Assembly (NCBI GenBank): GCA_049720225.1
Contig: JBNASD010000003.1
Location: forward strand, 143 to 64,142
Reading direction: 5' to 3'
Origin: Microgenomates group bacterium
GTDB lineage: Bacteria > Patescibacteriota > Microgenomatia > PFEM01 > JBNASD01
Length of the DNA: 64,000 bases
The position numbers and the translations under genes are program-made. The notes under the pieces were generated by a model. That model was not told the DNA's origin. It made no database searches and saw nothing but the letters and a program-made list of their open reading frames with translations. This document shows positions 46,170 through 64,000 of this stretch, one piece after another (position 1 is the first letter of the stretch; each line of letters opens with the position of its first letter).

Positions 46170-46172
46170 TTC

Positions 46173-47351: not shown

Positions 47352-47410
47352 TTTAACAAAAGTGTTAAAATAAATCTATTCAAAATTTTGCTTGGATTTA
47401 AAAAATTTTA

Positions 47411-48916: not shown

Positions 48917-50483
48917 CTGTTTATTAATCAAAGAAATAATTATTATTTTAATTTTTTTAATTTTAATTTTAGGCTCCTGGGGACCGCTGCTGGTCCATTT
49001 TCTTTTCCCCCCCTCCGGAAAAATTTTTTTAGGAAGCGTTGGTTTTCCTCATGATTTCTTTGGCAATTTAATTTCTTATCAGCAAGGAAGATTAGGCCAT
49101 TGGCTTCACTACTCCAAAATTTCTAGTACCCTCTCTTCTCCCCCTACCCTCGTAAGATGGGAATATAACCTTTTAGGCCAATTAAGTCGCCTTTTACCTT
49201 TTGAGGAAATTATCTCTTTTCATCTTTTTCGCTTTCTTTTTTCCTTAAGTTTAATTTTTTTTACTCTTGTTTTTGTTTTTTCTCTTTTTCCTTCCTTTTA
49301 TCTACCGGCGTTAATTTTAGCCTTTTTTTCCGCCGGTTGGGAAACAAAATTAATTAGCCTCTGGACCCCGTTAGGAGTTTTTCAACGATGGGCCTATTAC
49401 CCTCATTATTTATGGTCATTTGTCTTTTTCTTAGCTGGTTTTTGGTTTTTAGTAAAAGCATTGGAAACAAAAAAAATCTCATTTTTAATTTTTGCCAGTA
49501 TTTTTAATTTTTTTGCTAGCAATCATCCCCCGGTAATTTTATCTTTTTATCTTACTTTACCTTTTTATCTTTTGATTTTTATTTATCAAAAAAAACCAAC
49601 TACAAAAGATTTTCTAAAAGAATGTTTATTTCTTTTTATTTTTTCTGTTTCCGCTTTGCCCTTTTTGGTTTATCTTTATCAGGTAAGAAATCTTCATCCC
49701 TGGGATTTACTTTCTAAATTTGATTTAGCTTATGATTTTAAAAATTATCTTTCTTTTGGGGATATTTTAAAAGGATTAGGACCAGCAAGTATTTTTGCCT
49801 TCCTTGGCTCTTGGTTGGCAATTAAAGAAAAAAAACGAATTTGGTGGTTTTTGGCACCCCAAAGTTTTGGATATCTTTTAGGTTTTTTTCTTGTTTCTTC
49901 TTTTATTGGCTACAACAGTATTCGTTTTCTCCAAACGCCATTTTTTATTTGGTTAGCTTTTTTAACTACTCTTTTTTGGCAAAAAATTTTTCCGAAAAAA
50001 AATTTCTTAAGTGTTTTATTATTTTTCTTTATTTTTCTTTTTCCCGGTATTCCGGGATTAAAATTTAGTTTCCAAACCAACATTAATAATTTCTCCTCCA
50101 CCCATCCTTATATTTTTACTTCTCCTTTTAAAAAAGAAGCGCTTAAATGGCTAAAAGAAAATACTCAAGAGAAAGAAATTATTCTTTCTTCTCCTATCAA
50201 TGGAATGTTAATTGCTGCTTTTGCTGGAAATTATCCTTATATCACTGTTTATCTTCCCCAAGAGAAAGAATTTTCTTTTATTTGGGAAAATTATTATAAT
50301 TTTTTTAAACAAAATTGGTCTACTAACCAAGCAGAAGAATTTCTTAAAAAAGAAAATATAAGATATATTTTTTGGGGAGAGGAAGAAAAAAGTTTAAGTG
50401 GAAAAAACAGTTTAGATTATCCCTTTTTAGAAAAAGTCTTTGAAAACTCTTTAGTTTCCATATTTCGTTTTAATCCCACCTAA
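48897..50483 (+). CDS. polytopic membrane protein, GT-C-like, paralog B
   Basis: Multi-TM; conserved C-terminal domain ...AAFAGNYPYI...FLKKENIRYIFWGEEEKS. Confidence 0.5.
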   Translation: MKKRNINCLLIKEIIIILIFLILILGSWGPLLVHFLFPPSGKIFLGSVGFPHDFFGNLISYQQGRLGHWLHYSKISSTLSSPPTLVRWEYNLLGQLSRLLPFEEIISFHLFRFLFSLSLIFFTLVFVFSLFPSFYLPALILAFFSAGWETKLISLWTPLGVFQRWAYYPHYLWSFVFFLAGFWFLVKALETKKISFLIFASIFNFFASNHPPVILSFYLTLPFYLLIFIYQKKPTTKDFLKECLFLFIFSVSALPFLVYLYQVRNLHPWDLLSKFDLAYDFKNYLSFGDILKGLGPASIFAFLGSWLAIKEKKRIWWFLAPQSFGYLLGFFLVSSFIGYNSIRFLQTPFFIWLAFLTTLFWQKIFPKKNFLSVLLFFFIFLFPGIPGLKFSFQTNINNFSSTHPYIFTSPFKKEALKWLKENTQEKEIILSSPINGMLIAAFAGNYPYITVYLPQEKEFSFIWENYYNFFKQNWSTNQAEEFLKKENIRYIFWGEEEKSLSGKNSLDYPFLEKVFENSLVSIFRFNPT

Positions 50484-50491
50484 GGGGTGGG
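50474..50491. repeat. palindromic hairpin repeat, copy 6 (reverse orientation TCCCACCTAAGGGGTGGG)
   Basis: Overlaps stop codon of 48897..50483. Confidence 0.6.
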
Positions 50492-50503
50492 CAGAGGAAG
50501 AAA

Positions 50504-52171
50504 ATGAAAAAACTAATTGTGGTTTATCTAATAAGTTTTTTGATTGCTTTTTTAAATATTTTTCAAGTTGTTTGGTACGAAGCAAAAACCCCTTATAATA
50601 CCCAATATTTAGCCCCTGATGGTCATTATCCAATTGATTATTTCGCTTATCTTATCTCTATTGCTCAGGGTTTTCGAGGAAAATGGCAATTAGTTAATCT
50701 TTTAACCAGCGAAAACACTCCCTCCTACTGGGTAATAAGTTGGCCGTATTTGCTAATAGGTCATTTTTCAAGAATTTTTGGTCTTCTTCCTCAATTTGGC
50801 TATTGGATCGCCGTTTTTGGATTAACTTTTTTAATAATTTTCATCACCTATTTCCTTATTAAAATTACTTTGGCTAAAAATAAATTTTTAGTTTTTCCGG
50901 TTTTTTTAATTTATATTTTTGCCGGGCCTTTTTGGCAAATTAATAACCTTAATCCTTTAAAAATAGATTTTTTTCCTTTAACCTGGTATTATAAAACGCT
51001 TATTTTTAGTCGTCTTTCCGCCATTCCTCATCATCTTTTTGCTAATCTTCTAATTCTTCTTTTTTTTCTTTTCTCTTATTATTTTTTTGAAAATTTTTTA
51101 AAGAAAATTCATTCTCGAAAAAATTTTTTTTATTTCTTAGCGATTACCTTCGTTTTGGTTTTAATTTTTTCTCTCACTCCGATTAAAATTACTTATCTTT
51201 TTTTTACTTTTATTTTAACCTTTATTTATTGTTTCTTTCTTCATTATCGTCACAAAATTTCCTTTCGATTATTCTTTTTTAAAATTCTTTTTTATCTCAT
51301 CCCTCTTGGTTTATTACTTCTCTTTTTTGGTTTATATTTTCAAAAAAATTCCCAAGGAGCTTTTTTACCGGAATTAAAAACATTTGAAAAAGAAGAAATG
51401 GAATTTCCTTCTCTTAAAAATTTTCTTTTAGGTTCAGGACCGCTTTTAATTTTGGGGATAATCGCTTTTTGGTTATTAATTTTTACTGGTTTTAATCAAA
51501 TTTCTCCCTTTCTTTTTCTCGGTTTAACCGCCACTTTTTTATCTTATCTTCTTTTTTATACCCCATTTTCTGCTTTTTTTAATAATCATAATTCACGATT
51601 GCTCTTTGGAGAAAGTTATCTTTTTTTCTCTATTACCCTAGGATTAAGTCTGGAAAAAATTGCCCTTAAACTAAAATTAAACCCCAAAAAATTAATTATT
51701 TTTTTTCTTTTATTTTTTACTCTTTTTTCTCTTCCTGCGTGGTATGCTTATCTTCCTACTAGGTTAGAAACGGATCCTTTTTTTGAAAAAAACTATCGTT
51801 ATCTTCCTTTAGAAATAATTGAAGGTCTCACTTACTTAAATACCAAAAGTAATTCCCAAACAATAATTTTAACTCCTCCTAATTTCTTAGGATTAATTTT
51901 GCCGGTTTTTGTCGAAGGAAGAGTCTTTTGTGGATCGCCCAGCGGTACCCATCAATATTATCCGAAGGCTTTGATGGCGGCTAATTTTTATGGAGAAAAA
52001 ACCTCAATTGAAGAAAAAATAAAATTTCTTAAAGAAAACAAAATTAAATACGTAATTTACGTTTCTCCTGATTTAGACCCTAACCTTCCCGATTATATTT
52101 CTAAAAATTTCTCAAAATTAAATTTAAAACTAATCTTTTCTAATTCAAAAATAAAAATCTTTGAATTTTAG
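50504..52171 (+). CDS. polytopic membrane protein, GT-C-like, paralog C
   Basis: Multi-TM; conserved C-terminal domain ...FLKENKIKYVIYVSPD. Confidence 0.5.
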   Translation: MKKLIVVYLISFLIAFLNIFQVVWYEAKTPYNTQYLAPDGHYPIDYFAYLISIAQGFRGKWQLVNLLTSENTPSYWVISWPYLLIGHFSRIFGLLPQFGYWIAVFGLTFLIIFITYFLIKITLAKNKFLVFPVFLIYIFAGPFWQINNLNPLKIDFFPLTWYYKTLIFSRLSAIPHHLFANLLILLFFLFSYYFFENFLKKIHSRKNFFYFLAITFVLVLIFSLTPIKITYLFFTFILTFIYCFFLHYRHKISFRLFFFKILFYLIPLGLLLLFFGLYFQKNSQGAFLPELKTFEKEEMEFPSLKNFLLGSGPLLILGIIAFWLLIFTGFNQISPFLFLGLTATFLSYLLFYTPFSAFFNNHNSRLLFGESYLFFSITLGLSLEKIALKLKLNPKKLIIFFLLFFTLFSLPAWYAYLPTRLETDPFFEKNYRYLPLEIIEGLTYLNTKSNSQTIILTPPNFLGLILPVFVEGRVFCGSPSGTHQYYPKALMAANFYGEKTSIEEKIKFLKENKIKYVIYVSPDLDPNLPDYISKNFSKLNLKLIFSNSKIKIFEF

Positions 52172-52178
52172 CCCTTTT

Positions 52179-52195
52179 TCCCACCTAAGGGGTGG
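52179..52195. repeat. palindromic hairpin repeat, copy 7 (TCCCACCTAAGGGGTGG) between convergent genes
   Basis: Overlaps stop (CTA) of 52185..53786. Confidence 0.6.
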
Positions 52196-53786
52196 CTAAA
52201 ATATGAACTGTTAAGCCCAAGGTAGGAAATTCTTTTTCGGCAATCTTTTTTTCTCGATTGCTAATTAAAAATTCTTTTGCCTGCAAGGCAGTTCCTAAAT
52301 TGGCTTTCCGAAAGTCAACAGTATCTAACATTCCTCCTTCTTTAATTTCTAAAACGATAAAATAAGAAGAGTATTTATCTTCCCTTATTCCCCACCCTGC
52401 CTTTTGACCAACCGCAAAGTAAAAATTAAAAAGAAGGGGACTAAATTCATTGGTAAAATTCAAAGGAATTACTGGTTTTCTCAAATCAACTTGAGAAAAA
52501 ATAAATTTAAAAACATCTTCTTGTTTTTCCTGCTTTTGATAGTCGGGATATTGGTGGGGCCAATTATCACGGGTAAAATCAAACCGCCAACTCCGATATT
52601 GATCTTGCTCGTAAAAAACCGCGGTATCACTTTCATGAGAAACAGTAGGTCGTAAAATTTTTGGTAAAAAAATTAAATCTTTTAAAATTACCCCTCCAAA
52701 GATTAAAAACCCAGAAAAAAATATCCCTCCTAAAAAAGTTTGCCGAAGAATTATTTTTTTAAAAAAGCTAAAAATTAAAAATAAAATTTTTTCTAATCCA
52801 AAACTGGCAACCACCAAAAATCCAGGAACACTGGTAAAAATAAATCTTCCCTGATTATTGCCCATATGTCTTTCCGCTAAAATAAAATTAATTAAAAAAA
52901 GAAACCCCAAAATTCGCAAACGAAAGTCTCTTGGCCACCATTTAAAGGAATAAACAAATCCCAAAAAAGCCAATAAGAAAACTAAAGGGGAAAAAAAGTA
53001 CTCAAAAGCTAAAACAAGAGGGTAATATAAAAGATGGCCAATTACTGTTGTCTCGTAAAGATGAATGGTAAACCGGTTTTGTAAAATTAACCAAAATTCT
53101 TGCCACCGACCAGACGGAGAAAGCCAAATAGCTAAAACTAAAAATACGGGTAAAAACAAAATTAAATTTTCTTTTAATCGGCGCCAGAAAAAAAATTCTA
53201 ATCCCAAAACCATCAAAACTAATACTCCATAATTATATTTAGTGAGGGTTAAAATTAAACTTACCAATCCGCTTAAAAAAAACCAAAATAATTTTTTTTC
53301 TTCCCGTCCTTTAATATAAAACCAAAAAGCTAGTAAAGTTAAAACCGTCCCTAATCCTTCTTTCATTGCCGTAGAATAGTAATATAAAATTAGCGGCGAA
53401 GTAAAAAGAAAAAATAAAACTAAAAAGGAAGCTAAAGATTTTTTGCCACTTATTTTTAAACTTATTTGATAAATCAATAAAGCAGTAGGAAAAATTAATA
53501 AAAAACTCACCAAGCGAGCAGTAAAAAAATTATAAGGCAAAAAAATTGTAGTCAAACCTAAAAACCAAGACTGAAAGAAAGGATAATAAAACTGTGATTG
53601 GGTAATTTTTAAAAATTCTTGCCAATTGCCAGCCCGCAGGGCTTCATGAACCCGATATCCCTCCCAAATATAACCCGCCTCATCCCACATTACTATTCCC
53701 GGCAAAAAATGAAAAAAAGAAAAAAAGGCAAAAAGAATTAAAACAAGAAGAAAGAAAAATTTTATCTCCCTAAATTTAATCCTCAT
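52185..53786 (-). CDS. ArnT/PMT-like GT-C family glycosyltransferase (GT39/GT83-type)
   Basis: First periplasmic loop VMWDEAGYIWEGY (conserved DE motif of PMT/ArnT), >10 TMs, 533 aa. Confidence 0.6.
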   Translation of the reverse strand: MRIKFREIKFFFLLVLILFAFFSFFHFLPGIVMWDEAGYIWEGYRVHEALRAGNWQEFLKITQSQFYYPFFQSWFLGLTTIFLPYNFFTARLVSFLLIFPTALLIYQISLKISGKKSLASFLVLFFLFTSPLILYYYSTAMKEGLGTVLTLLAFWFYIKGREEKKLFWFFLSGLVSLILTLTKYNYGVLVLMVLGLEFFFWRRLKENLILFLPVFLVLAIWLSPSGRWQEFWLILQNRFTIHLYETTVIGHLLYYPLVLAFEYFFSPLVFLLAFLGFVYSFKWWPRDFRLRILGFLFLINFILAERHMGNNQGRFIFTSVPGFLVVASFGLEKILFLIFSFFKKIILRQTFLGGIFFSGFLIFGGVILKDLIFLPKILRPTVSHESDTAVFYEQDQYRSWRFDFTRDNWPHQYPDYQKQEKQEDVFKFIFSQVDLRKPVIPLNFTNEFSPLLFNFYFAVGQKAGWGIREDKYSSYFIVLEIKEGGMLDTVDFRKANLGTALQAKEFLISNREKKIAEKEFPTLGLTVHILATP

Positions 53787-53816
53787 TTTCTAGTTTTAGT
53801 TCATTATATAATAAAA

Positions 53817-55406
53817 ATGATGAGAAAAATTCTGAAAATTAATTTTTTTTATTTCACGGAAAAAAAGGAATTAATCGGAGTAATTTTTCTTTCTTTTTTT
53901 GCGTTATTTTTAAGTCTTATTTCTACCTTTACTGATATTTTTTTCCATGCTCCCCCCAACACCGTCTACTCTTTTGCTCATAATTATATGCCTGATTATT
54001 ATCAATATCTTTCTTGGATGAAAGATGGCGCGGATGGTAAATTTTTTATCACTTCTCGTTATTCGGCAGTTGATTTCGTACCTAAACCAGTTTATCTTTT
54101 TTATCCTCTTTTAGGTTTTCTCTCGCAAAAAATGGGTTTACCTTTAGTCTTTGGCTATACCTTAGGGCGAATTTTTTGGGCGGGAGTTCGTCTTTTGGCA
54201 ATTTATTTTTTAATTACTCAGATAATCAAAAAACCCTACTTGCGTTTATTGACTTTTTTTCTTTGTTTGTTTCTTCCCCCTTTTTACCAAATTTTTTCCG
54301 GAAAATTAACATTTCAAAATATCTCCAATTTAGACCCCCTTGCCCGTAATCTTTTTATCCCCCACGACAGCGCTACTTTAGCTCTAATTTTGTTTTCCGC
54401 TATTTTTTTTAATTTTTATCTTCGGCAAAAAAAAATTCTTTTTCTTTTTTCATCCGCACTTCTTTTAAGCATTGCCTCAGTTTTTAATCCGGCAATTACC
54501 AGTTTATTTTTGCTTTTTCTTGCCGGTGGTGGTTTTTTATATTTGGTTAAAAACAAAAAATTTTTTCCTTTATTATTGGGAGGAATAATTTTGGCTATTT
54601 TTAGCCTGCCAATTCTTTTTTACTATCAACATCTTTTTGCCACTACTCTCCCTTTTTCGTGGATGTTTCATCGCCAAAAAACAGTAGTGGTTTTGGATTT
54701 TAAGAATCACTTTTTGGCTCTTTTACCGTTTTTATTAGTTGGTTTTTGGGGATTTTTAAAAAGCTTTTCTCAAAAAGATTTTTTAACTAACTTTCTTTTA
54801 AGTTGGGTAATTATCTCTTTTATTTTAGCTCCTCTTTTAGGAAGAATTCTTCCTTTATCGCAAGAACGCCTTTTTGAAATATCTCATTTTTTACCGTTGG
54901 CAATTTTTGGCGGAAAAACTTTAGAAAGCTTAAGGGGAATTAAATTTAAAATTGCCTTAACTTTGCTTTTTTTATTTATTCTCCCCTATTTCGTTTTTGA
55001 TTTGAAATGGCATATCAAGCAGTTTGCCTCTCCTTATTTTAATATTTATATTCCTATTACTACCCTTCAAGCATTTGGGTGGCTTGATCAAAATACTCCC
55101 CCTCTCTCGGTAGTCGCCGCTGGTTATTACACTGCCAATATGATTCCTGCTTTTTCTCACAATCGCGTGTTTTTTGGTCATGATTTTACTACTTACTTGG
55201 CGGAAGAAAAACTTCAAGAATTAAATCTTTTATTTTCTCCTTCTACACCAGAAGAAGAAATTAAGGAGATTCTCCAAAAAAATAAAGTTGATTATTGGTT
55301 TTTTAGTCCAGAGACGCCAACTATTCCTTCTCAATTGATAGAAAAATTAGGTTTTAAATTGATTTTTTTCAATCAAGGGAATCAAATTTACCAAGTGAAA
55401 TTTTAA
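53817..55406 (+). CDS. polytopic membrane protein, GT-C-like, paralog D
   Basis: Multi-TM; conserved C-terminal domain ...AAGYYTANMIPAFSHNRVFFGHD...ILQKNKVDYWFFSPE. Confidence 0.5.
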   Translation: MMRKILKINFFYFTEKKELIGVIFLSFFALFLSLISTFTDIFFHAPPNTVYSFAHNYMPDYYQYLSWMKDGADGKFFITSRYSAVDFVPKPVYLFYPLLGFLSQKMGLPLVFGYTLGRIFWAGVRLLAIYFLITQIIKKPYLRLLTFFLCLFLPPFYQIFSGKLTFQNISNLDPLARNLFIPHDSATLALILFSAIFFNFYLRQKKILFLFSSALLLSIASVFNPAITSLFLLFLAGGGFLYLVKNKKFFPLLLGGIILAIFSLPILFYYQHLFATTLPFSWMFHRQKTVVVLDFKNHFLALLPFLLVGFWGFLKSFSQKDFLTNFLLSWVIISFILAPLLGRILPLSQERLFEISHFLPLAIFGGKTLESLRGIKFKIALTLLFLFILPYFVFDLKWHIKQFASPYFNIYIPITTLQAFGWLDQNTPPLSVVAAGYYTANMIPAFSHNRVFFGHDFTTYLAEEKLQELNLLFSPSTPEEEIKEILQKNKVDYWFFSPETPTIPSQLIEKLGFKLIFFNQGNQIYQVKF

Positions 55407-55452
55407 AATTGATTATTGACAATTGAAATAAAAATTGCTAATTTAAAAAAGT

Positions 55453-56142
55453 ATGGAGGAAAAACCTGATTTGAAAAAAATCGCCGCGGGAATGATTTTG
55501 GGATTGGTAATTTTAGGAGGTGCCTTATATTTTGCCTGGAAATACTCCCAAAAACAAGGAATTAAACTTACTTTACCTTCGGGAGGAACTTATACTGGCG
55601 AAAAAAGTGGTTTTCAAGATGCTAATCCCCCCACCGCCCCTCTTCGTTTTACCGCCCCAGCAGATGTGGAATGGGTTACTTATCAAGGAAAAGTCTATCC
55701 TTACACTTTTTCTTATCCTAAAACTTTATCTTTAGCCAATTTTCCCAACGATCCTTTAGACGCCGTTGGAATTGCTTGGGGTAATCTTAACCCTCAGTTT
55801 AATATTTTGTTAGATATTGAAAATATTGAACAATTAGACCCCCAAAACGTCGGTAATACCGAAGCTTTTGTTCACAACTGGTGGAAAAGATTTTCTGGTC
55901 TTAAAGGAGTTTTATCGGTAGACAGATTCACCAATGCTAATGGTTTAAAAGGTTATAAAGCAATTTACATTAACACCGCAGGACAAACTCCTAATGTTGA
56001 CATCTTTTTTGAAGTACCGCGTAATCCTAAATTAGTAATCCATTTAGCTAATGGGATTTTGGATCCTTTAATTTTTAACCGCATTGTTGATAGCGTCAAT
56101 TGGCTTTCTCCTACCCCCAGCCCCACTCCTCCTTCTCAATAA
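55453..56142 (+). CDS. membrane-anchored hypothetical protein with PT-rich C-terminal tail
   Basis: N-terminal TM; ...SPTPSPTPPSQ* tail. Confidence 0.45.
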   Translation: MEEKPDLKKIAAGMILGLVILGGALYFAWKYSQKQGIKLTLPSGGTYTGEKSGFQDANPPTAPLRFTAPADVEWVTYQGKVYPYTFSYPKTLSLANFPNDPLDAVGIAWGNLNPQFNILLDIENIEQLDPQNVGNTEAFVHNWWKRFSGLKGVLSVDRFTNANGLKGYKAIYINTAGQTPNVDIFFEVPRNPKLVIHLANGILDPLIFNRIVDSVNWLSPTPSPTPPSQ

Positions 56143-56173
56143 TTCTTTTAAAAAGATATAATAAAATTAATTT

Positions 56174-57937
56174 ATGACCAAAGTGTCGATAATTTTTTTT
56201 CTTGGCTTAATAATCCGGTTATTTTTAATTCCCGCCCCTGGTTTTGAAGCGGATATTGCTTTTTGGAAATCGTGGAGCTTAGCGGCGGAAGAAAAAGGAA
56301 TCAATTGGCTTACCCAAAATACCAATTATAACTATCCTTCCGGTTTTGCCTTAATATTATGGTTGGTAGGAAAAATTTATCGCCTTTTTGCCGACCCCCA
56401 GAATTACAATCAATACTGGAATGCCCATAATTTTTTATATTTATTTTTAATCAAACTTATTCCTATTTTTTCCGACATTTTCCTTGCTTTAGGAATTTTT
56501 TTGTTTTTTAGTCAACCAGAAAAAATTAACCTTCCACCAAAAATCAAAAAACTAGCTCCTTTTTTGGCCGGCGCTTATTTTTTTCACCCATTAGTTCTTT
56601 ATGACGGTGTCTGGTGGGGACAGGTTGATAGTTTAGGGGCGGTATTTTTAGTTTGGAGTTTAATTTTTCTTTTTTGGCAAAAACCAGTTTTAGGAGCAAT
56701 AACCTTAACCGCCGGTTTTCTTTTAAAAATGCAATTGATGATTTTTTTACCTCTTTTTTTTATTATTTTATGGATTTATTGGTCTTGGAAAACTATGATT
56801 AAAGGAATTATCGCTTCTTTTCTTACTTTTTTATTTCTTTCTTTTCCATTTTTATTAGCCAATAATTTAGGACGAACCTTTACCTTAATTACCCAAAACG
56901 CTGATTGGTTTCCCCTTCTTTCTTTGCGAGCAGATAATTTTTGGTGGCTTTATTCGTGGGGAAAAGGAATGACTACTAGCGATAAAATTCTTACCCTCGG
57001 CATTATCCAAGCAAAAACTTTAGGTTTAATTTTATTCTCTGCTGGTTATCTTTTAGCTTTATTCGCCCTCCTTCCTAAACCTACTCCCCAAAAAATTTTA
57101 ATTAGTTTTTCTTTAGCCGGTTTTTCTTTTTTTCTTTTCCCTACTCAAAGCCATGAACGTTATCTTTTTCCTACGTTAGTCCTTTTATTATTCCTTGTCC
57201 CTTTTTATTGGGAGGATAAAAAGAAAAATATCTTTATTACTCTTCTTACCACCCTTTCTTTGGCTTCCTTAATTAATCTCAACAGTGCAATGAAAAACAA
57301 TTATCCTCACAACAGTTGGCCGTTTTTGGACTTTACTGCCAAAGGAGAAGGAGATATTCTTGTCTCTTTCGTTAATCTGGGAGCTTTTTTTTGGCTTTTA
57401 AATTTCTGGCGAAAAGAAATTAGCAGAATAGGATTAATTAGCGCTTGTTTTTTGATATTGCTAGGAATTATTTGGGGAAACTTAAAGTTTTTTTTAGGAA
57501 AACCAATTTCTTTAAGTTCTCTTAAACCCATTGATTATTCTCAAGATTTTGGCTCTCCTCAATTTAATTTAGCAGTTCAATCAACTTTTGGACCAAAAAG
57601 TTGGTCATTTTTAAGCGTTAACTGGTTTTTTTATCGGAAAGGAATTGGCACCCACGCTAATTCGAAAATCTCTTGGGATTTAGGTGGTCGGTTTAGTAAA
57701 TTTTTTACTGGTTATGGTGTAGATAGTTTAGCCAACCAATCTGCCTCAGTGATTTTTGAAATTTGGGGAGATGACCAACTTCTTTTCCGTTCCTCAAAAA
57801 TCACCCGCGCTGACCTTCCTCAAGCCACTGAAGTTTCCGTTAAAGGGGTAAAGACTTTAACGTTAGTGGTTAATGATGCCGGTGATGGCATTTATAGTGA
57901 CCATGCCGATTGGCTAGAACCAAGGCTTTATAAATAA
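56174..57937 (+). CDS. polytopic membrane protein with C-terminal NPCBM-like (GH98-type) carbohydrate-binding domain
   Basis: ~12 TMs then GIGTHANSKISWDLGGRFSKFFTGYGVDS...VIFEIWGDDQLLFRSS...VKGVKTLTLVVNDAGDGIYSDHADWLEPRL (NPCBM consensus incl. DHADWA-like motif). Confidence 0.55.
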   Translation: MTKVSIIFFLGLIIRLFLIPAPGFEADIAFWKSWSLAAEEKGINWLTQNTNYNYPSGFALILWLVGKIYRLFADPQNYNQYWNAHNFLYLFLIKLIPIFSDIFLALGIFLFFSQPEKINLPPKIKKLAPFLAGAYFFHPLVLYDGVWWGQVDSLGAVFLVWSLIFLFWQKPVLGAITLTAGFLLKMQLMIFLPLFFIILWIYWSWKTMIKGIIASFLTFLFLSFPFLLANNLGRTFTLITQNADWFPLLSLRADNFWWLYSWGKGMTTSDKILTLGIIQAKTLGLILFSAGYLLALFALLPKPTPQKILISFSLAGFSFFLFPTQSHERYLFPTLVLLLFLVPFYWEDKKKNIFITLLTTLSLASLINLNSAMKNNYPHNSWPFLDFTAKGEGDILVSFVNLGAFFWLLNFWRKEISRIGLISACFLILLGIIWGNLKFFLGKPISLSSLKPIDYSQDFGSPQFNLAVQSTFGPKSWSFLSVNWFFYRKGIGTHANSKISWDLGGRFSKFFTGYGVDSLANQSASVIFEIWGDDQLLFRSSKITRADLPQATEVSVKGVKTLTLVVNDAGDGIYSDHADWLEPRLYK

Positions 57938-57958
57938 ATTACCAATTGCAAATTTTCA

Positions 57959-60223
57959 ATGAGAAATCAATTTAACAATTTTCAAATAAAAGGAAAAAAT
58001 ATAAAAAATTTCAAAAGCCTTAGAAAAAAAATCTGGATTTTCTTTTTGTTAGCGGCAATCATTTTTAATTTCCTCACTCTTTGGCCGGAGTTAACAACTC
58101 GTTTAGACCCCAATGATAATATTTTTCAATTTGGATTAGTTCAAAGAATGGCGCAAATTTGGGATTTAGTTTTTACCGGCAAAATTTCTCCTTTGTCTTT
58201 AATTGACCATTGGGTTCCAGCCTGGGTGCTTGGTTATCCTCTTCCCTATTACTACCAACATCTTCCTCATCTGATTATTGTGATTTTCTATAAACTTTTA
58301 TTACAAAAGGTAAACTTATATAACATTTTTAAAATAGTAAAATTTCTTCTTTGGGTTAGTTATCCCCTTGCTCTTTATCAATCCGGTCGCTGGTTTGGCT
58401 TTTCCAAAATTACCTCTGCTTTAATGGCTTTCTTTGGTTCGCAAATCATTACCGATGGTCTTTATGGAGCGGATATTGTTAGCTTTGCCTGGCGAGGATA
58501 TGGTTTAACCACCCAACTTTTTGCCTTAATTTTTACTCCCCTGGCTTTCGCTTACGGTTGGCGAATTTTAAATCAAAACAAAATCTCTTTTCGTCAAATA
58601 GCTTGGTTAACCCTGCTTTTATCCGCCAGTTTTGCCTCTCATTTAGCTTTTGGTTATTTTGTTTGTTTTTCTTTATTATTTGCCCCCTTAGCTTTTCTTC
58701 CTTGGGAAAGACTACCTTATTTTTTAACTAACTTTGCCGAAGAAAAACTTCGCTGGCAACAATTGTTAAAACCAGTTTTTAAAAAATATCAAATTTTATT
58801 TCTGACTTTTTTAACCACTTTTCTTCTTTTAAGCTACTGGTTTATTCCCCTCTTTCTCCATAATCAATACCACAATATTTCTTTTTGGGATTCACCTTTA
58901 AAATGGAACTCTTACGGAGCCAAGGAAGTTATCGTGATGTTTTTAAGCGGCCAGCTCTTTGATTTTGGCCGACCACCGATTTTAACCGCCTTGGTAATTG
59001 GCGGTTTATTTTTGGCTCTTTCTCGATTTAAACCCCGTCACCGATTTTTGGTTTTTCTTTTTGGCTTTTGGTTTGCCTTGTATTTTGGGAGAACCACTTG
59101 GGGAAAATTAATCGACCTTCTACCAATGATGAGGGAAATGCACCAACAGCGGTTAGTGAATAGCTTACATATAGTTTGTATCTTTTTGATAGGTTTATTT
59201 GGAGGGTTTCTCTGGCGAAAAATTAAAAATTTGGCAATTAAATTGAAAATAAAACCTACTTTTATTGTTTCTTCTATCCTTTTTATCATCTTAGGAATTC
59301 CTGTTTATAAGGCAAACTGGCAGTATTTAAAACTTAATTCTTCGTGGATTAAACAGGATAATCAAGCTTATGAGCAAATAAAAAATGACTATCAGGCGCT
59401 AATAAACTATCTTAAAAGTCTTCCCCCAGGAAGAATTTATATCTTTAAAAAAACCAAGGACGGTCAACCATTCAATATTGGCCAAACCGCTATCTTTTTG
59501 GCTTTAAGCCGGGAAACTTTTCCCACCGTTGGTTTTCTTCCAGAAACTTGGTCACTTAATAGCGATATTGAACTTTTATTTGACGAAAACAATCCCCAAC
59601 ATTATCGCCTTTTCAATGTCCGTTGGGTAGTTTTGCCCCACGATAATCCTTTACCTGATTTTATGAAAGAAAAAGCAGTTTTTGGTCCTTTTAAGGTAGC
59701 AGAAGTGGAAAGCGGCGGTTATTTTACCCTCGGTACCAGTCAATTAAAAGTTAAAACGAACAAAGAGAATATTTTTAACTTTCTTCATTTATGGTTTTGG
59801 TCTGACAAACCTACGCAAAATGAGTTTCCTACTTTAGAACTTAATGGAGAAGATCCTCAACCACCAGTTTTTAATTCCCTTCCTTATTCCCATTTTTCCC
59901 CACCTAAAAATTTGGGAATTATTGATGAAGAAAAAGTAGAAGATGAAAAATATCAAGCAAAATTTACCGTTGCCGACTCTTGTCAAAATTGCCTTTTGGT
60001 TTTCAAAATGACTTATCATCCCAACTGGCAAGTATTTCTGGATGGTCAAAAAGCAGAAAAAATAATGGTTTTTCCCAGTTTTATCGCCCTTAAAGTCTCC
60101 CCAGGTGCGCATCAGGTAGTTTTTTATTACCAACCTTATTGGCTAAAAATCCCCCTTTTAATTATTGGTTGGCTTGTCTTTTTCTTTTTTGTTTTTAAAA
60201 GAAAATTTTTATTAAGGGATTAA
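57959..60223 (+). CDS. large polytopic membrane protein (YfhO/GT-C-like), hypothetical
   Basis: 754 aa, ~14 TMs plus C-terminal soluble domain. Confidence 0.5.
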   Translation: MRNQFNNFQIKGKNIKNFKSLRKKIWIFFLLAAIIFNFLTLWPELTTRLDPNDNIFQFGLVQRMAQIWDLVFTGKISPLSLIDHWVPAWVLGYPLPYYYQHLPHLIIVIFYKLLLQKVNLYNIFKIVKFLLWVSYPLALYQSGRWFGFSKITSALMAFFGSQIITDGLYGADIVSFAWRGYGLTTQLFALIFTPLAFAYGWRILNQNKISFRQIAWLTLLLSASFASHLAFGYFVCFSLLFAPLAFLPWERLPYFLTNFAEEKLRWQQLLKPVFKKYQILFLTFLTTFLLLSYWFIPLFLHNQYHNISFWDSPLKWNSYGAKEVIVMFLSGQLFDFGRPPILTALVIGGLFLALSRFKPRHRFLVFLFGFWFALYFGRTTWGKLIDLLPMMREMHQQRLVNSLHIVCIFLIGLFGGFLWRKIKNLAIKLKIKPTFIVSSILFIILGIPVYKANWQYLKLNSSWIKQDNQAYEQIKNDYQALINYLKSLPPGRIYIFKKTKDGQPFNIGQTAIFLALSRETFPTVGFLPETWSLNSDIELLFDENNPQHYRLFNVRWVVLPHDNPLPDFMKEKAVFGPFKVAEVESGGYFTLGTSQLKVKTNKENIFNFLHLWFWSDKPTQNEFPTLELNGEDPQPPVFNSLPYSHFSPPKNLGIIDEEKVEDEKYQAKFTVADSCQNCLLVFKMTYHPNWQVFLDGQKAEKIMVFPSFIALKVSPGAHQVVFYYQPYWLKIPLLIIGWLVFFFFVFKRKFLLRD

Positions 60224-60804: not shown

Positions 60805-60833
60805 TTGACAAACCTAAAAAATCTTATTATAGT
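60805..60833 (+). promoter_or_regulatory. sigma70-type promoter (TTGACA-17-TATAGT) upstream of 60903
   Basis: TTGACA at 60805-60810, 17-nt spacer, TATAGT at 60828-60833, ~70 nt before ATG. Confidence 0.5.
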
Positions 60834-60902
60834 AGATTTAAATAAAATATAATCTTGATATAATCAGTATAATTTGAACCTAAATTTGAAATTGCGGAAA
60901 AA

Positions 60903-61382
60903 ATGAACCTGCCCGAAAAATTTAAGCTTTATTTAATAACGCAAAAGTCTTCGCCGGTAACGGTTAAAAATTATGTGGCAGATATTAAAAAATTCCTTGA
61001 CTGGTTAGCCAAAAAAACCGGTATTCTCTATCAAGTCGCTGGGGCTTCTATTTTCGGCCTTTTTACTAAAGAAACAATCCTCGAATATCAGCAGGACTTA
61101 ATGAGTGCTAAAATTCCCTCATCAACAATTAATCGCTATTTATCGGCTCTTCGTAAATTTGGTGATTTTGCTTTAAGCCAAGGATGGCTCCAAAGTAATC
61201 CTGCAGATGAAATTAATAACGTTAGTTTGGAAAAAATAAAAACTTTTACCGCTGAAAACGATCAGGAAAAACTTTTAGCAGAATTTCAAAAGGACTTAGA
61301 GAAAGAAAAAGTCAGTTCCCTGACGATTAAAAACTATTTAGTCGATATTCGTCATTTTTTAAGTTGGTTAAAGAGAAATTAA
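60903..61382 (+). CDS. tandem phage-integrase N-terminal SAM-like (core-binding) domain protein lacking a catalytic domain
   Basis: Two copies of the XerD-type N-terminal pattern: ...PVTVKNYVADIKKFLDWLAKK and ...SSLTIKNYLVDIRHFLSWLKRN; 159 aa. Confidence 0.55.
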   Translation: MNLPEKFKLYLITQKSSPVTVKNYVADIKKFLDWLAKKTGILYQVAGASIFGLFTKETILEYQQDLMSAKIPSSTINRYLSALRKFGDFALSQGWLQSNPADEINNVSLEKIKTFTAENDQEKLLAEFQKDLEKEKVSSLTIKNYLVDIRHFLSWLKRN

Positions 61383-61425
61383 AAAAATTTTTAAAACTAA
61401 ACTAACCTATCTAAAAATAAATAAT

Positions 61426-61472
61426 CCCCCCAATTTAGGGGGGCGTGATTAAGTTAATTTTATAACATAATG
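61426..61472 (+). promoter_or_regulatory. repeated intergenic unit copy 1: GC hairpin (CCCCCC-AATTTA-GGGGGG) + CGTGATTAAGTTAATTTTATAACATAATG spanning next start codon
   Basis: Directly visible; the 3' part recurs at 62040-62066. Confidence 0.5.
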
Positions 61473-62048
61473 AAACAACTCTTGTCAAGCCAACCAGAAC
61501 AAATTTTAAAACTTAAGGGGCCAACGGTGGTGATTGTTGATTGGGCTAATGTCCATGGATGGGAGGAAAAACTCCGTTGGGAAATTGATTTGAAAAAACT
61601 TTATCGATATCTTAAGAGTTATCCGCAAATTCAAGAATTTCGTTTCTATTTTGGTACCGACGCTCATCCGGCTTCAAAACAACAGTTAAAACAAGCTCAA
61701 GAAATCGGTTTTAAAGTAATTACTAAAACGGTGAAATATCTCCCAATAAAAGACAAAAATATTGTCATTTGGAAAAGAAAGTGCGATTTCGACTTGGAAA
61801 TTGGCTTGGATTGTTTTGAAATGTTGGAAAAATTTGCTGGATTTATCTTTTTTAGCGGTGATGGTGATTTTGCTGCTTTATATCGCCGATTGGTGAAAAG
61901 AAAAAAACAGGTAATTGTGGTGGCTACTAAGTGGTCTTTAGGAAAAGAAATTACGCAAATTAAAAGAGGAGTTTATATCTTGCGGGTAAATAAACTTAAA
62001 AGTTTTATAAAAAAATCCCCCCGATTGAAAAATCGGGGGTGCGATTAG
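61470..62048 (+). CDS. NYN-domain (LabA-like, PIN-related) protein
   Basis: VVIVDWANVH..., FYFGTDA, FFSGDGDFAALYRRL...VIVVA match NYN/LabA consensus. Confidence 0.6.
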   Translation: MKQLLSSQPEQILKLKGPTVVIVDWANVHGWEEKLRWEIDLKKLYRYLKSYPQIQEFRFYFGTDAHPASKQQLKQAQEIGFKVITKTVKYLPIKDKNIVIWKRKCDFDLEIGLDCFEMLEKFAGFIFFSGDGDFAALYRRLVKRKKQVIVVATKWSLGKEITQIKRGVYILRVNKLKSFIKKSPRLKNRGCD

Positions 62049-62066
62049 TTATTTTATAACATAACC
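62016..62066 (+). promoter_or_regulatory. repeated intergenic unit copy 2: hairpin (CCCCCCGATT-GAAAA-AATCGGGGG) + TGCGATTAGTTATTTTATAACATAA
   Basis: Hairpin overlaps the last codons of 61470..62048; followed by TTGTCAAG and ATG of next gene. Confidence 0.5.
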
Positions 62067-62074
62067 AAAATTTT

Positions 62075-64000
62075 TTGTCAAGAAATGGAAATTACTAAAC
62101 AACAAATAACCAATTACCAACGCCGTTTACAGGAGTTGGGGCTTTCCCCCTCCTCAATTAAACGCCGAATGGCGGCGGTGCGCAAATTTTGTCAGTGGGC
62201 GGTAGAGAAAGGCTATCTAGCGAAAAATCCTTTTGCTCAACCAGTCACCGCGCCACGTTGGGTAAATAGATTTTTGGGTACCCAATTACCAAAAGGCGAA
62301 CCTAAAACTTGGCGGGAAAAAATTCTTGCTAAAATTCAACCCTTCCTCACTTCCCTTTTAACAAATATATCAAAAATTTACCAAGCATATACTTCTATAT
62401 CAATTACCCGCTACCTCCATTGGGCAATTTTGATTGTTTTGTGTACCGCCTTAGGATTTGGAATTTACGACCAGTTTATCCGTAAAGCGCCAGAAAAATT
62501 AGCTTATCCAAGCGTTCCTACTCCTCCCAAAAGATATTTAAGCTTTCAGGGGCGATTAACTGATTCTTCTAATAATCCCATCACTTCCGCTACAGAGATA
62601 ACTTTTAAGTTATGGAATCATGCTACTAATAATACCGAAGTCAGTTGCGATGGGGGCGGAGACGAAAACTGTTTATGGAGTTCAGGAACCTGCACCGTCA
62701 CTCCTGACCAGGATGGAATCTTTAATGTTATTTTGGGAACTACTTCTGGAGATGGTTATTCTTGTCCTTCGGCAACAGAAATTAGCGCCTCGGTTTTTAC
62801 CGAAAATGTTGAAGTTTGGCTGGGAGTAAAAGTTGATGGTGACGATGAAATGACGCCGCGGGTACAAATTGCCTCAGTGGCTTATGCTCTAAACGCCGCC
62901 ACTTTACAAGGTTTGCCCCCAGGCACTACCGCCTCCACTATCCCCTATATTAACTCTGAAGGAAAATTAGTAATTGCCGCTTCCTCTCCTACCATTGAAT
63001 CTACCTCCGGCACTTTTGCCATAAAAGGTCAAGCACTAACCATTACCACCGCCACCGGTTCTGATGGTAATATCACCTTAGCACCTGATGGATCGGGAGT
63101 GATAAACCTTATTCTTAACGCTCCAAAGGGAAATTTGCTAAATGCCTCGGCGGCAAATTTGGGAGCAAGCGGTCAAAAAGAAGAAAATACCCTTTATTAT
63201 GGTGTCGTGGCCAACGATAACACTAATTTTAATTTATTAAAACTAGAGTCCGGCTCTACCCCCACCCCAAAATTTACTATTGATGCTTTAGGTAATGCTT
63301 CCGCCGCTGGGAATTTACGAATTTTAGGAACAGGAAATAATTTTTTTGCTGGCAATGTGGGAATCGGTACTACCAATCCCGCTTACGGTTTAGATGTAGC
63401 TTTAGTTTCAAGTGGAATTTCCGGTAGATTCTCCGGAAGAGTCATTGGTGCGGATGCGGTAAATAGTAATGAGTTTGTAACGTTGGCGCAATTACAAGGA
63501 GGAAGTGGGAGTTTGTGGTTGGATGGTGGAGATTATCTTTATCCCAATTCTTCTTTTGCGACCAGTGTCATGGTACCTTCAGGAAATATTGGGATTGGAG
63601 TAACAGGAACTTCCGGATACAATCTTTATGTTTCCGGAACTGCTAATGTTTCTACTTCTTTAACTACACCTTTGATTATTGGTTCTTCTTCTTTAGCTTT
63701 AAGACCAGCTTCTAATTCTACTACCGCTATTCAATTACAAAATGCTTCAGGAACACCAATATTAAATATAGATACGACAAATCAAAGAATTGGAATTGGA
63801 ACTACTGCTCCTTCCTATTCCTTAGATGTTTCCGGAACCTTAAGAACCACGGATATCTCTTGGCTAGGAAGTGGGTTAACTGGACAGGGACTATATATCA
63901 ATTCCTCTGGTAACGTTGGCATCGGGACGACGGGACCACAACAAAAATTAGATGTTCGTGGAAGAATTTTTGTAGGAGATGCTTATGAGGACAGCGGTGC
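62075..64000 (+). CDS. large (>641 aa, runs off window) protein: N-terminal integrase-type SAM-like core-binding domain + TM helix + extracellular fibre-like region with repeated (N)[VI]GIGTTxPxxxLDVxG motifs
   Basis: Open frame from ATG 62075 to window end (hand-translated, no stops); N-terminal QITNYQRRLQELGLSPSSIKRRMAAVRKFCQWAVEKGYLAKNPFA; TM ISITRYLHWAILIVLCTALGFGIY; repeats NVGIGTTNPAYGLDV / RIGIGTTAPSYSLDVSG / NVGIGTTGPQQKLDVRG. Confidence 0.6.

What the first reader, a model, noticed from the sequence alone, without database searches (positions are those of the whole stretch)
62075..64000. Giant fibre-like membrane protein that begins with a cytoplasmic integrase-type DNA-binding domain
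An N-terminal SAM-like core-binding domain (~110 aa) is followed by one TM helix and then by >450 aa of beta-rich sequence with periodic motifs NVGIGTTNPAYGLDV, NIGIGVTGTSGYNLYV, RIGIGTTAPSYSLDVSG and NVGIGTTGPQQKLDVRG. These are reminiscent of phage tail-fibre and beta-helical adhesin repeats. The predicted topology would place a DNA-binding-type domain inside and an adhesin-like fibre outside, an odd combination that could couple surface attachment to DNA-associated processes in an organism that also keeps comEA/comEC. The gene runs off the window and was missing from the ORF track.
Basis: seen in the sequence. Interest (0 to 1): 0.55.

Follow-up and report, generated by a model that had tools for sequence, protein, structure and literature searches.

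The report
Membrane-anchored surface fibre with split integrase-like tail
This is a real, very large surface-fibre gene of an uncultured Microgenomates (CPR) bacterium; its short cytoplasmic tail is only half of an integrase-type helical domain, and the missing half sits on a small separate protein encoded just upstream, an arrangement common in this group but apparently undescribed and routinely mislabelled "site-specific integrase".

Summary
The ORF is real. It starts at ATG 62085 and stays open for 638 codons to the window end. It has more than 60 close homologues and 422 related loci among GTDB species genomes, nearly all Microgenomates.

Layout of the visible part:
- aa 2-58: the second half only of an integrase SAM-like (core-binding-type) domain
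- aa ~106-132: one transmembrane helix
- aa ~150-275: a beta domain homologous to the N-terminal domain of Bdellovibrio MAT fibres
- then a fibre with four VGIGTTxPxxxL loop motifs

The first half of the SAM-like domain, plus one complete SAM-like domain, lies on the upstream ORF 60903-61382. A NYN-nuclease gene (61470-62048), flanked by a duplicated leader, has been inserted between the two.

The split is conserved. 22 related loci share it, some with overlapping stop and start codons. All 120 listed small partners end 0-5 residues after the half-domain. Other relatives carry the same modules fused in one ORF.

No recombinase catalytic domain exists, so the "integrase" annotation is wrong.

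Best reading: an N-in/C-out, probably trimeric, adhesin-like fibre whose cytoplasmic stub docks a small SAM-like protein. DNA binding and any link to competence are untested.

The parts
60805..60864 (+). Two promoter-like sites upstream of the small partner gene (TTGACA-17-TATAGT and TTTAAA-16-TATAAT)
   Evidence: Consensus scan, (11/12 and 10/12 matches). Consensus matches only; function not shown.
60903..61382 (+). ORF A: a 159-aa soluble protein made of one complete SAM-like domain plus the first half of a second one (A-B-A). It ends ...SSLTIKNYLVDIRHFLSWLKRN*. Proposed partner of the fibre protein.
   Evidence: Phage_int_SAM_1 E 1.4e-17; XerC/XerD N-terminal region only. Half-domain HMM scan. 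143 homologues; the 120 listed are all 133-197 aa, all A-B-A, and all end 0-5 aa after the second half-A. 100% identical to NCBI MGB9911620.1 'site-specific integrase [Microgenomates group bacterium]'.
61412..61492 (+). Copy 1 of the leader unit (hairpin CCCCCC..GGGGGG at 61426-61443, GATTAAGT, ATTTTATAACATA, TTGTCAAG). It overlaps the NYN start codon.
   Evidence: Direct repeats D4 and D7, spacing 591-594 nt. Alignment with copy 2 and with the ORF B leaders of L004-L006. Hairpin listed.
61470..62048 (+). 192-aa NYN-domain (PIN-like nuclease fold) gene, a secondary insertion between the two halves of the split gene
   Evidence: Pfam NYN E 1.9e-16. NYN genes sit at the same junction in L004 and L006 (31-35% identity) and are absent from the closest relatives L003, L001, L002. 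Flanked by the duplicated leader.
62003..62084 (+). Copy 2 of the leader unit, immediately upstream of the fibre gene (hairpin at 62018-62039)
   Evidence: The unit is conserved upstream of ORF B in L004, L005 and L006.
62085..64000 (+). ORF B: first 638 codons of the giant fibre gene, truncated by the window end
   Evidence: Translation without stops. Homologues E 1e-177 to 1e-40. 422 related loci in GTDB species genomes.
62088..62258 (+). aa 2-58: second half (helix pair B) of a SAM-like / core-binding-type domain, predicted cytoplasmic
   Evidence: Pfam and NCBIfam partial matches. AF2 helices 5-17 and 22-41 with pLDDT above 90. Collinear with intact domains in fused relatives.
62400..62480 (+). 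aa 106-132: single transmembrane helix (signal-anchor)
   Evidence: Hydropathy. AF2 continuous helix 106-132. Conserved position in 51 homologues.
62532..62909 (+). aa 150-275: conserved beta-rich domain (RYLSFQGRLTD ... QIAxVxYALNAxTLQG), homologous to the N-terminal domain of MAT fibres
   Evidence: NF053851 Bdello_MAT_N in 24/24 members, best E 7e-10, below the curated cutoff. AF2 pLDDT about 90. No PDB neighbour with E below 1e-3.
62910..64000 (+). aa 276-638: conserved neck, then the start of the variable fibre, with loop motifs VGIGTTNPAYGL (63357), IGIGVTGTSGYNL (63588), IGIGTTAPSYSL (63789) and VGIGTTGPQQKL (63915)
   Evidence: Regex positions. Motif consensus from PMC10769870. PHROG tail-fibre hits on the motifs. 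Low AF2 confidence as a monomer.

Best explanation
The window ends inside a giant gene for a surface fibre of a Microgenomates (CPR) bacterium; relatives run about 1,500-3,300 aa, and family members reach over 7,000 aa.

The protein is a single-pass N-in/C-out membrane protein. Outside the cell it has the build of the 'mosaic adhesive trimer' (MAT) and tail-fibre class: a conserved base domain next to the membrane, followed by a long, probably trimeric, beta-helical shaft with VGIGTTxPxxxL loops. Its most likely job is attachment to a partner cell or surface.

Inside the cell, the family carries one to several integrase-type SAM-like four-helix modules and no recombinase catalytic domain. In this lineage the last module is cut in two. 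Helices 1-2 end the small soluble protein ORF A (60903-61382). Helices 3-4 begin the fibre protein.

I infer that the two halves reassemble non-covalently, so ORF A is docked at the cytoplasmic base of the fibre. In the window a NYN-nuclease gene has been inserted secondarily into the junction, together with a duplicated copy of the fibre gene's leader.

Shown here: ORF integrity, domain content, the split and its conservation, and the insertion.
Inferred: topology, trimer state, adhesion, and trans-complementation.
Unknown: what the SAM-like modules bind.
For: - Open frame and start codon.
- Half-domain matches.
- Fused relatives with A-B or A-B-A-B before the transmembrane helix.
- Split aba|B in 22 loci plus the window. 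Junction types include an overlapping ATG/stop preceded by AAAGGAG (L021, L043, L046), TAAATG (L081) and gaps of about 15-20 nt.
- All 120 listed small partners are A-B-A and end 0-5 aa after half-A, at 50-68% identity.
- Transmembrane helix and charge asymmetry.
- MAT_N homology in 24/24 members, and the description of MAT architecture and loop motif.
- Indicators of trimer formation in relatives: collagen repeats in P0041 and a Peptidase_S74 chaperone in L021.
- AF2 models. Foldseek neighbours of the ORF A + ORF B N-terminus model are almost all tyrosine-recombinase core-binding domains.
- Chromosomal context with cell-envelope glycosylation genes.
- Family size: 534 cluster representatives at E<=1e-30 and 38,884 at E<=1e-3.
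Against: - The C-terminus of this particular gene is not in the window and the source contig could not be fetched.
- The MAT_N match is below NCBIfam's curated cutoff (best member about 1e-9; the window protein scores 18.9-23.9 bits against 60).
- Unlike MATs, complete relatives have a conserved rather than variable C-terminal region (17 of 27).
- The fibre part folds with low confidence as a monomer.
- Topology rests on charge bias and homology, not experiment. Local K/R counts beside the helix differ only mildly (2.24 vs 1.76).
- Docking of ORF A onto the stub is inferred from collinearity only. The concatenated single-sequence model has pTM 0.39 and I could not inspect its contacts.
Confidence: 0.68

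Rival explanations
1. Signalling or DNA-coupling reading, close to the first reader's. The SAM-like modules are functional DNA-binding domains. The fibre then acts like a ToxR-type membrane-tethered regulator, or sequesters the small ORF A protein (a DNA-binding regulator) at the membrane and releases it on contact, coupling surface attachment to gene expression or DNA handling.
For: - The modules are homologous to the DNA-binding core-binding domains of XerC/XerD-type recombinases.
- The pre-transmembrane region is strongly basic: pI 10.5, 18 K+R against 5 D+E.
- A detachable partner made of 1.5 domains is conserved.
- comEC is present in the genome.
Against: - No DNA-binding test was possible.
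- In recombinases this domain binds DNA together with the catalytic domain, which is absent here.
- There is no genomic linkage to competence genes (35 kb apart).
- Many relatives have the modules fused and permanently tethered, which fits an anchor better than a releasable factor.
Confidence: 0.15
2. Broken gene: the fibre gene was disrupted by the NYN insertion, ORF A and ORF B are decaying fragments of a pseudogene, and the SAM-like stub is meaningless.
For: - A domain is interrupted by a stop codon and a 702-nt gap holding a foreign gene.
- The insert is flanked by direct repeats.
Against: - The same break, without any insert, occurs in the closest relatives (L003, L001, L002) and in distant Woesebacteria, where the ORFs overlap in a translationally coupled way.
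- All 120 listed small partners end at the same place and are 50-68% identical.
- ORF B is intact for 638 codons and 43-67% identical to homologues.
Confidence: 0.04
3. One protein after all: the intervening sequence is removed or bypassed (intron, intervening-sequence-like excision with ligation, frameshift or ribosomal hop), so that ORF A and ORF B are made as a single polypeptide.
For: - The halves are exactly collinear with fused relatives.
- Relatives carry a structured, covarying RNA-like element right after the ORF A stop.
- 23S rRNA intervening-sequence-protein genes occupy the same junction in some genomes.
Against: - No Rfam intron or ribozyme match in the junction.
- Gap lengths vary from -10 to over 1,000 nt with no constant frame relation.
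- Several junctions have a Shine-Dalgarno sequence plus ATG overlapping the stop, the signature of two coupled ORFs.
- The window junction lacks the structured element.
Confidence: 0.04
4. Phage gene: this is a tail-fibre gene of a prophage or phage fragment, and the integrase-like piece belongs to the phage integration module.
For: - PGAP calls the relatives 'site-specific integrase'.
- PHROG integrase and tail-fibre families give hits.
- One relative is named 'Virion structural protein'.
Against: - The PHROG tail-fibre hits cover only about 30-aa loop motifs.
- There is no catalytic integrase domain.
- A transmembrane anchor sits between the modules.
- The neighbours are housekeeping and envelope genes: ArgRS, LeuRS, ClpB, MreB, GT2, PMT_2, a YfhO-like protein.
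- The gene is found in complete CPR chromosomes and in 422 species-level genomes.
Confidence: 0.04

Closest known systems
Bdellovibrio bacteriovorus MAT (mosaic adhesive trimer) fibre proteins (Caulton et al. 2024, PMC10769870; NCBIfam NF053851 Bdello_MAT_N)
   Same: [quoted passage not shown]
- A long fibre carries V-G-G/N-pi-x-x-P-x-x-x-L loops.
- Some relatives carry an S74 chaperone.
- The base domain has no PDB structural neighbour, as the MAT paper also reports.
   Different: - MATs have a cleavable signal peptide and no cytoplasmic part. Here an uncleaved transmembrane anchor is preceded by 70-480 aa of SAM-like modules.
- MAT tips are variable. Here 17 of 27 complete relatives share a conserved C-terminal region ending FNWWI.
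- The host is a CPR bacterium, not a Gram-negative predator.
- Scores are below the family's curated cutoff.
N-terminal SAM-like / core-binding domains of tyrosine recombinases (XerC/XerD, lambda Int, Cre; Pfam PF02899, PF13495, PF13102)
   Same: - Sequence matches to the four-helix module.
- Foldseek neighbours of the model are core-binding domains, for example 3nrw with TM 0.69 and rmsd 1.6 Å.
   Different: - No catalytic domain in any family member examined.
- The modules are repeated one to several times, tethered to a membrane helix, and in this lineage one of them is divided between two polypeptides.
- DNA binding is untested.
ToxR/CadC/TcpP-type membrane-bound one-component regulators
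   Same: Cytoplasmic N-terminal nucleic-acid-binding-type domain, a single transmembrane helix, and an extracytoplasmic C-terminal part.
   Different: - Those use an OmpR-type winged helix and a small periplasmic sensor (established knowledge).
- Here the module is integrase-type and the outside part is a fibre of over 1,500 aa.
- There is no evidence of regulation.
Phage tail fibres and tailspikes with Peptidase_S74 intramolecular chaperones
   Same: Shared loop motifs and, in some relatives, the S74 domain or collagen repeats.
   Different: Cellular chromosomal gene, membrane-anchored, with no virion genes nearby.

Membership tests
Tyrosine recombinase / 'site-specific integrase' (the name PGAP gives ORF A and many relatives) | C-terminal catalytic domain (Pfam Phage_integrase PF00589) with the R-H-R-H/W...Y active site | tested here: not met
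   No PF00589 hit and no match beyond about position 130 of XerC/XerD models, in ORF A, ORF B, or the complete relatives L007, L017, L021, L071.
Tyrosine recombinase / 'site-specific integrase' | N-terminal SAM-like core-binding domain | tested here: met
   ORF A: PF02899 E 1.4e-17, full length. ORF B: second half only, E 4e-5. Structural neighbours are core-binding domains.
MAT (mosaic adhesive trimer) fibres | Conserved ~130-aa beta-rich N-terminal domain (NF053851) | tested here: inconclusive
   All 24 members of alignment A1 hit NF053851 (best E 7e-10; the window domain E 2.9e-5, 23.9 bits). All are below the curated 60-bit cutoff. Homology is likely; strict membership is not established.
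MAT (mosaic adhesive trimer) fibres | Cleavable signal peptide immediately before that domain (a secreted, surface-bound protein) | tested here: not met
   105 basic residues with a folded helical hairpin precede the hydrophobic segment. In the top 150 family representatives the domain starts at residue 26-486.
MAT (mosaic adhesive trimer) fibres | Trimeric beta-helix/prism shaft with V-G-G/N-pi-x-x-P-x-x-x-L capping loops | tested here: inconclusive
   Four motif copies in the visible part. Trimer state could not be modelled (monomer AF2 only, low pLDDT). Collagen and S74 in relatives point to trimers.
MAT (mosaic adhesive trimer) fibres | Variable C-terminal tip domain, with or without S74 protease-chaperone | not testable with these tools
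   The C-terminus lies beyond the window and the contig could not be fetched. In relatives the C-terminal ~200 aa are conserved in 17/27; S74 was seen in L021 only among four scanned.
Phage tail fibre (virion protein) | Encoded in a phage or prophage with virion genes | tested here: not met
   Neighbours are housekeeping and envelope genes. PHROG hits are restricted to ~30-aa motifs.
ToxR-like membrane-bound regulators | OmpR-type winged-helix DNA-binding domain at the cytoplasmic N-terminus | tested here: not met
   Pfam and NCBIfam find only integrase SAM-like matches.
Self-splicing intron / ribozyme in the ORF A-ORF B junction | Match to a group I/II intron or ribozyme covariance model | tested here: not met
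   Rfam gathering scan of the window found only two tRNAs. Permissive scans of the junctions found nothing near threshold.

The most novel reading that the evidence does not exclude
Docking by fold complementation is a signalling device. The small A-B-A protein would be a nucleic-acid-binding factor whose incomplete second domain is completed by the cytoplasmic stub of the surface fibre. Mechanical or conformational changes of the fibre on contact with a host cell would capture or release it, giving CPR episymbionts a direct outside-to-nucleoid signal path built from a split integrase core-binding domain. The conserved structured RNA and the recurrent NYN and intervening-sequence-protein gene insertions at the junction would then be regulators or parasites of this operon.
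Probability: 0.1. Interest if true: 0.85.

Novelty: new variant of a known kind. Interest (0 to 1): 0.6.

Why it matters
CPR bacteria such as Microgenomates are thought to live attached to other cells, yet the molecules that make the contact are largely unknown. This family is large: 422 loci in GTDB species genomes and 534 cluster representatives at E<=1e-30, with members up to about 7,400 aa. It is related to the fibres that Bdellovibrio uses to recognise prey, and it is a concrete candidate for the attachment apparatus.

It also shows an unusual piece of protein architecture. A recombinase DNA-binding-type module has been reused on the cytoplasmic side of a surface fibre, and it is stably divided between two genes.

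In practical terms, hundreds of database entries named "site-specific integrase" or "XerD" in these genomes are not recombinases. These genes also break assemblies, since nearly all hits are 'partial'. Both effects distort counts of mobile elements and surface proteins in CPR genomes.

Tried and rejected
1. Fetching the rest of the gene. Exact-product look-ups for the NYN protein and for ORF A/P0121 found nothing. An exact 53-mer scan of metagenome contigs gave 0 hits. The GTDB scan did not contain the source genome (best 68% identity). Only the protein accession MGB9911620.1 and the contig length of 80,320 bp were recovered.
2. Intron, ribozyme or recoding at the junction. No Rfam support. 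Junction geometry is inconsistent with one mechanism.
3. Solved-structure homologues of the base domain or fibre. No sequence hits. Foldseek against the PDB found only generic beta-sandwiches with E>1e-3. The afdb50 library was unavailable.
4. Naming the conserved C-terminal region of relatives. No Pfam or NCBIfam match. A homology search returned only 19 unnamed fragments.
5. RNAalifold on the junction element. Only the outer stem was recovered, because the inner part varies in length. I did not build a covariance model, because the element is absent from the window.
6. Literature. Four searches for SAM-like or integrase modules on CPR surface proteins found nothing relevant.
7. Pseudogene and prophage readings were rejected on conservation and gene context (see the rival explanations).
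Full report
**The observation.**
The frame starting at ATG 62085 is open for 638 codons to the window end. An in-frame TAG lies at 62046-48, and 62085 is the first start codon after it (seen in the sequence). The ORF list omits the gene only because it runs off the window.

The gene is conserved. More than 60 proteins from Patescibacteria/Microgenomates MAGs match at E 1e-177 to 1e-40, with 43-67% identity for the closest. The nearest one, P0001, begins with the same residues, MEITK.

**What the visible 638 residues contain.**
- Residues 2-58 match only the second half of integrase N-terminal SAM-like profiles: PF02899 positions 42-83 of 83, and XerC/XerD positions ~40-98. AF2 with a 58-sequence alignment folds them as a confident helical hairpin (helices 5-17 and 22-41, pLDDT above 90).
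- Residues 59-105 are a linker and a helix that continues into the only strongly hydrophobic segment, aa ~106-132.
- The hydrophobic segment keeps a fixed distance (18-32 aa) from the invariant LSFQGRL motif in 51 homologues.
- The sequence before the segment is basic (median +9.6 net charge per 100 aa; pI 10.5 in the window). The sequence after it is acidic (-3.0).
- Residues ~150-275 form a confident beta domain (pLDDT about 90).
- After a conserved neck, the first four VGIGTTxPxxxL-type motifs occur at aa 425, 502, 569 and 611.

**The missing half is upstream.**
ORF 60903-61382 (159 aa, here called ORF A) has one complete SAM-like domain (PF02899 E 1.4e-17). Its last ~36 residues (...LLAEFQKDLEKEKVSSLTIKNYLVDIRHFLSWLKRN*) are the first half of a second domain.

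I built HMMs for the two halves, A (helices 1-2) and B (helices 3-4), and scanned 76 related loci plus the window.
- 29 relatives have A-B before the transmembrane helix in one ORF, and 5 have A-B-A-B.
- 22 relatives plus the window have a small upstream ORF with A-B-A and a giant ORF that starts with B.
- In fused relatives the A and B halves are joined by a short linker, for example DWAGKKSIAKIGSNHIKTYR in L022. The window's two ORFs are therefore exactly collinear with one intact domain.

**The split is not damage.**
- In L021, L043 and L046 the giant ORF's ATG overlaps the small ORF's stop and is preceded by AAAGGAG. In L081 the junction is TAAATG. In L026 it is ATGGATCTTAA. Others have gaps of about 15-20 nt.
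- A search with ORF A found 143 small proteins. All 120 listed are 133-197 aa, all are A-B-A, and all end 0-5 residues after the second half-A. They are 50-68% identical to the query, which is better conserved than the fibre itself.
- On a rough tree of the base domain, split and fused forms are interleaved. The boundary has therefore been crossed more than once.

I infer that the two halves assemble in trans, docking ORF A on the cytoplasmic stub of the fibre. A single-sequence AF2 model of ORF A joined to the ORF B N-terminus repeats the helix pattern of domain 1 across the junction. Its Foldseek neighbours are almost exclusively recombinase core-binding domains. I could not inspect the contacts.

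**The NYN gene is a secondary insertion.**
- The 702-nt gap in the window holds a 192-aa NYN-domain gene (E 1.9e-16).
- It is flanked by two copies of an ~80-nt unit: hairpin, GATTAAGT, ATTTTATAACATA, TTGTCAAG. The same unit precedes the giant ORF in L004-L006.
- The closest relatives L003, L001 and L002 have no insert (gaps of 113-164 nt). L004 and L006 have NYN genes at the same place, 31-35% identical. L005 looks like a deletion remnant.
- In other lineages the same junction carries 23S-rRNA-intervening-sequence-protein genes (PF05635: L011, L041, L068; weaker in L009 and L051).
- No intron or ribozyme model matches.

**What the outside part is.**
- The base domain hits NCBIfam Bdello_MAT_N in all 24 members of alignment A1 (best E 7e-10). 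All scores are below the curated cutoff.
- MAT fibres of Bdellovibrio have a signal peptide, a conserved ~130-aa beta-rich N-terminal domain with no PDB homologue, an intertwined trimeric beta-helix/prism shaft with V-G-G/N-pi-x-x-P-x-x-x-L capping loops, and variable tips with or without an S74 chaperone (PMC10769870).
- The window protein fits the first three features. Its base domain likewise has no PDB neighbour.
- Relatives contain collagen repeats (P0041), Peptidase_S74 (L021; several hits) and inteins (P0012, P0031). Collagen and S74 argue for trimers.

The differences from MATs are clear.
- This family has an uncleaved anchor with a cytoplasmic module instead of a signal peptide.
- It has a conserved rather than variable C-terminal ~200 aa ending ...YVTPxSxTxNxVLYVKSKxxGEFxVGF...FNWWI in 17 of 27 complete relatives. 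That region has no name in Pfam or NCBIfam and only unnamed fragmentary homologues.

**Size and spread.**
- Complete relatives are mostly 1,482-3,272 aa.
- Profile search of 1.84 billion cluster representatives gives 534 at E<=1e-30 and 38,884 at E<=1e-3. Members reach 7,448 aa, and the base domain starts at residue 26-486.
- The GTDB scan found 422 related stretches. Those carrying a CPR name in the record title are Woese-, Roizman-, Shapiro-, Woyke- and Pacebacteria and Microgenomates. Many others carry evidently wrong names.
- Most database entries are 'partial', because the gene sits at contig ends.

**Context.**
The window is ordinary chromosome: ArgRS, LeuRS, ClpB, MreB, two tRNAs and comEC. 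Directly upstream of ORF A lies a block of envelope glycosylation-type genes: GT2, PMT_2, a YfhO-like protein, NPCBM and B12-radical-SAM enzymes.

In 9 of 15 relatives with enough downstream sequence, the giant gene is followed by a 600-680-aa multi-pass protein with TPR repeats and a weak Wzy_C (O-antigen-ligase family) match. This hints that the fibre is glycosylated or assembled by a dedicated partner. There are no phage genes nearby.

**Verdict.**
The finding is real and more interesting in detail than described. The gene encodes a membrane-anchored, MAT-like giant fibre whose cytoplasmic integrase-type module is split between two genes and interrupted here by a NYN cassette.

It is not a recombinase. 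DNA binding and any coupling to competence are unsupported, since comEC is 35 kb away.

I found no description of this architecture in the searchable literature. I class it as a new variant of a known kind (MAT and tail-fibre-type adhesins) with an undescribed anchoring and partner module.

Noticed in passing
L001:5888-5990, L002:5837-5945, L003:3734-3845, L004:3937-4020, L005:913-1010, L006:2058-2150, L009:9092-9180, L017:9680-9765: An ~85-110-nt structured element lies right after the stop of the small SAM-like ORF in the window's closest relatives. Its outer stem shows compensatory changes (GCGGGCC/GGCCCGC, GGTGGACC/GGTCCACC, GCAGGCC/GGCCTGC). An apical hairpin presents a Shine-Dalgarno-like G-rich loop (TTTGG-GGGGA-CCAAA or TCTC-GGGG-GAGA), followed by TTGATTATATAACA. 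In 1.1 Mb of held sequence it occurs only at this junction. It has no Rfam match and is absent from the window itself.
   Followed up: partly
window 61412-61492 and 62003-62084: An imperfect direct repeat of the fibre gene's leader (hairpin + GATTAAGT + ATTTTATAACATA + TTGTCAAG) brackets the NYN gene. The first copy overlaps the NYN start codon, as if the cassette arrived or was duplicated with the leader. The scan scores both hairpins as terminator-like on the minus strand only.
   Followed up: partly
L011:1735-2118, L041:1520-1894, L068:721-1428 (weaker: L009:9096-9746, L051:1195-1728): In other genomes the same ORF A/ORF B junction holds a gene of the 23S-rRNA-intervening-sequence-protein family (PF05635) instead of NYN. 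The junction looks like a recurrent landing site for small, possibly selfish genes.
   Followed up: partly
C-termini of the giant ORFs in L016, L017, L021, L022, L034, L037, L039, L040, L043, L048, L052, L053, L062, L063, L066, L071, L080: A conserved, unnamed C-terminal region of about 200 aa ends ...YVTPxSxTxNxVLYVKSKxxGEFxVGF...FNWWI. It has no Pfam or NCBIfam match and only unnamed fragmentary homologues. A conserved tip is the opposite of what MAT fibres show.
   Followed up: partly
L017:16865-18805, L021:16629-18602, L071:16708-18630, and six other loci: A 600-680-aa multi-pass membrane protein with C-terminal TPR repeats and a weak Wzy_C (O-antigen ligase family) match follows the giant gene in 9 of 15 loci. 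It may be a dedicated glycosylation or assembly partner.
   Followed up: partly
P0012, P0031 (also P0028, P0035, P0036, P0053 according to precomputed Pfam): Several family members carry inteins (Hint / Intein_splicing) inside the fibre. In P0031 the intein ends immediately before a GNLGIGTT loop motif.
   Followed up: no
window 43035-60223: A block of envelope-modification-type genes lies directly upstream of the fibre operon: three radical-SAM enzymes (two with a B12-binding domain, one with SPASM), GT2, a PMT_2 (GT-C) protein, an NPCBM-domain protein, a YfhO-like 754-aa membrane protein, and several 500-590-aa ORFs with no Pfam match.
   Followed up: partly
record titles of L003, L004, L005, L008, L014, L031 and many others; names: Contigs carrying this typical Microgenomates gene are deposited under names such as 'uncultured Gammaproteobacteria', 'Nevskiaceae', 'Bathyarchaeia', 'Melioribacter roseus', 'Methanoperedens' and 'Micrarchaeia'. 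These are likely binning or labelling errors in public MAGs.
   Followed up: no
window 60903-61382 and its homologues: NCBI and JGI name ORF A and the N-terminal fragments of the fibre 'site-specific integrase' or 'recombinase XerD/XerC', although no catalytic domain is present. This is a systematic misannotation.
   Followed up: yes
   Followed up: yes
L007, L036, L058, L060, L064 downstream of the giant ORF: Where the giant ORF lacks the FNWWI end, the next ORF is again fibre-like (501-1,487 aa). In some genomes the fibre may therefore be encoded in two consecutive ORFs, or be broken by assembly or frameshift errors.
   Followed up: no
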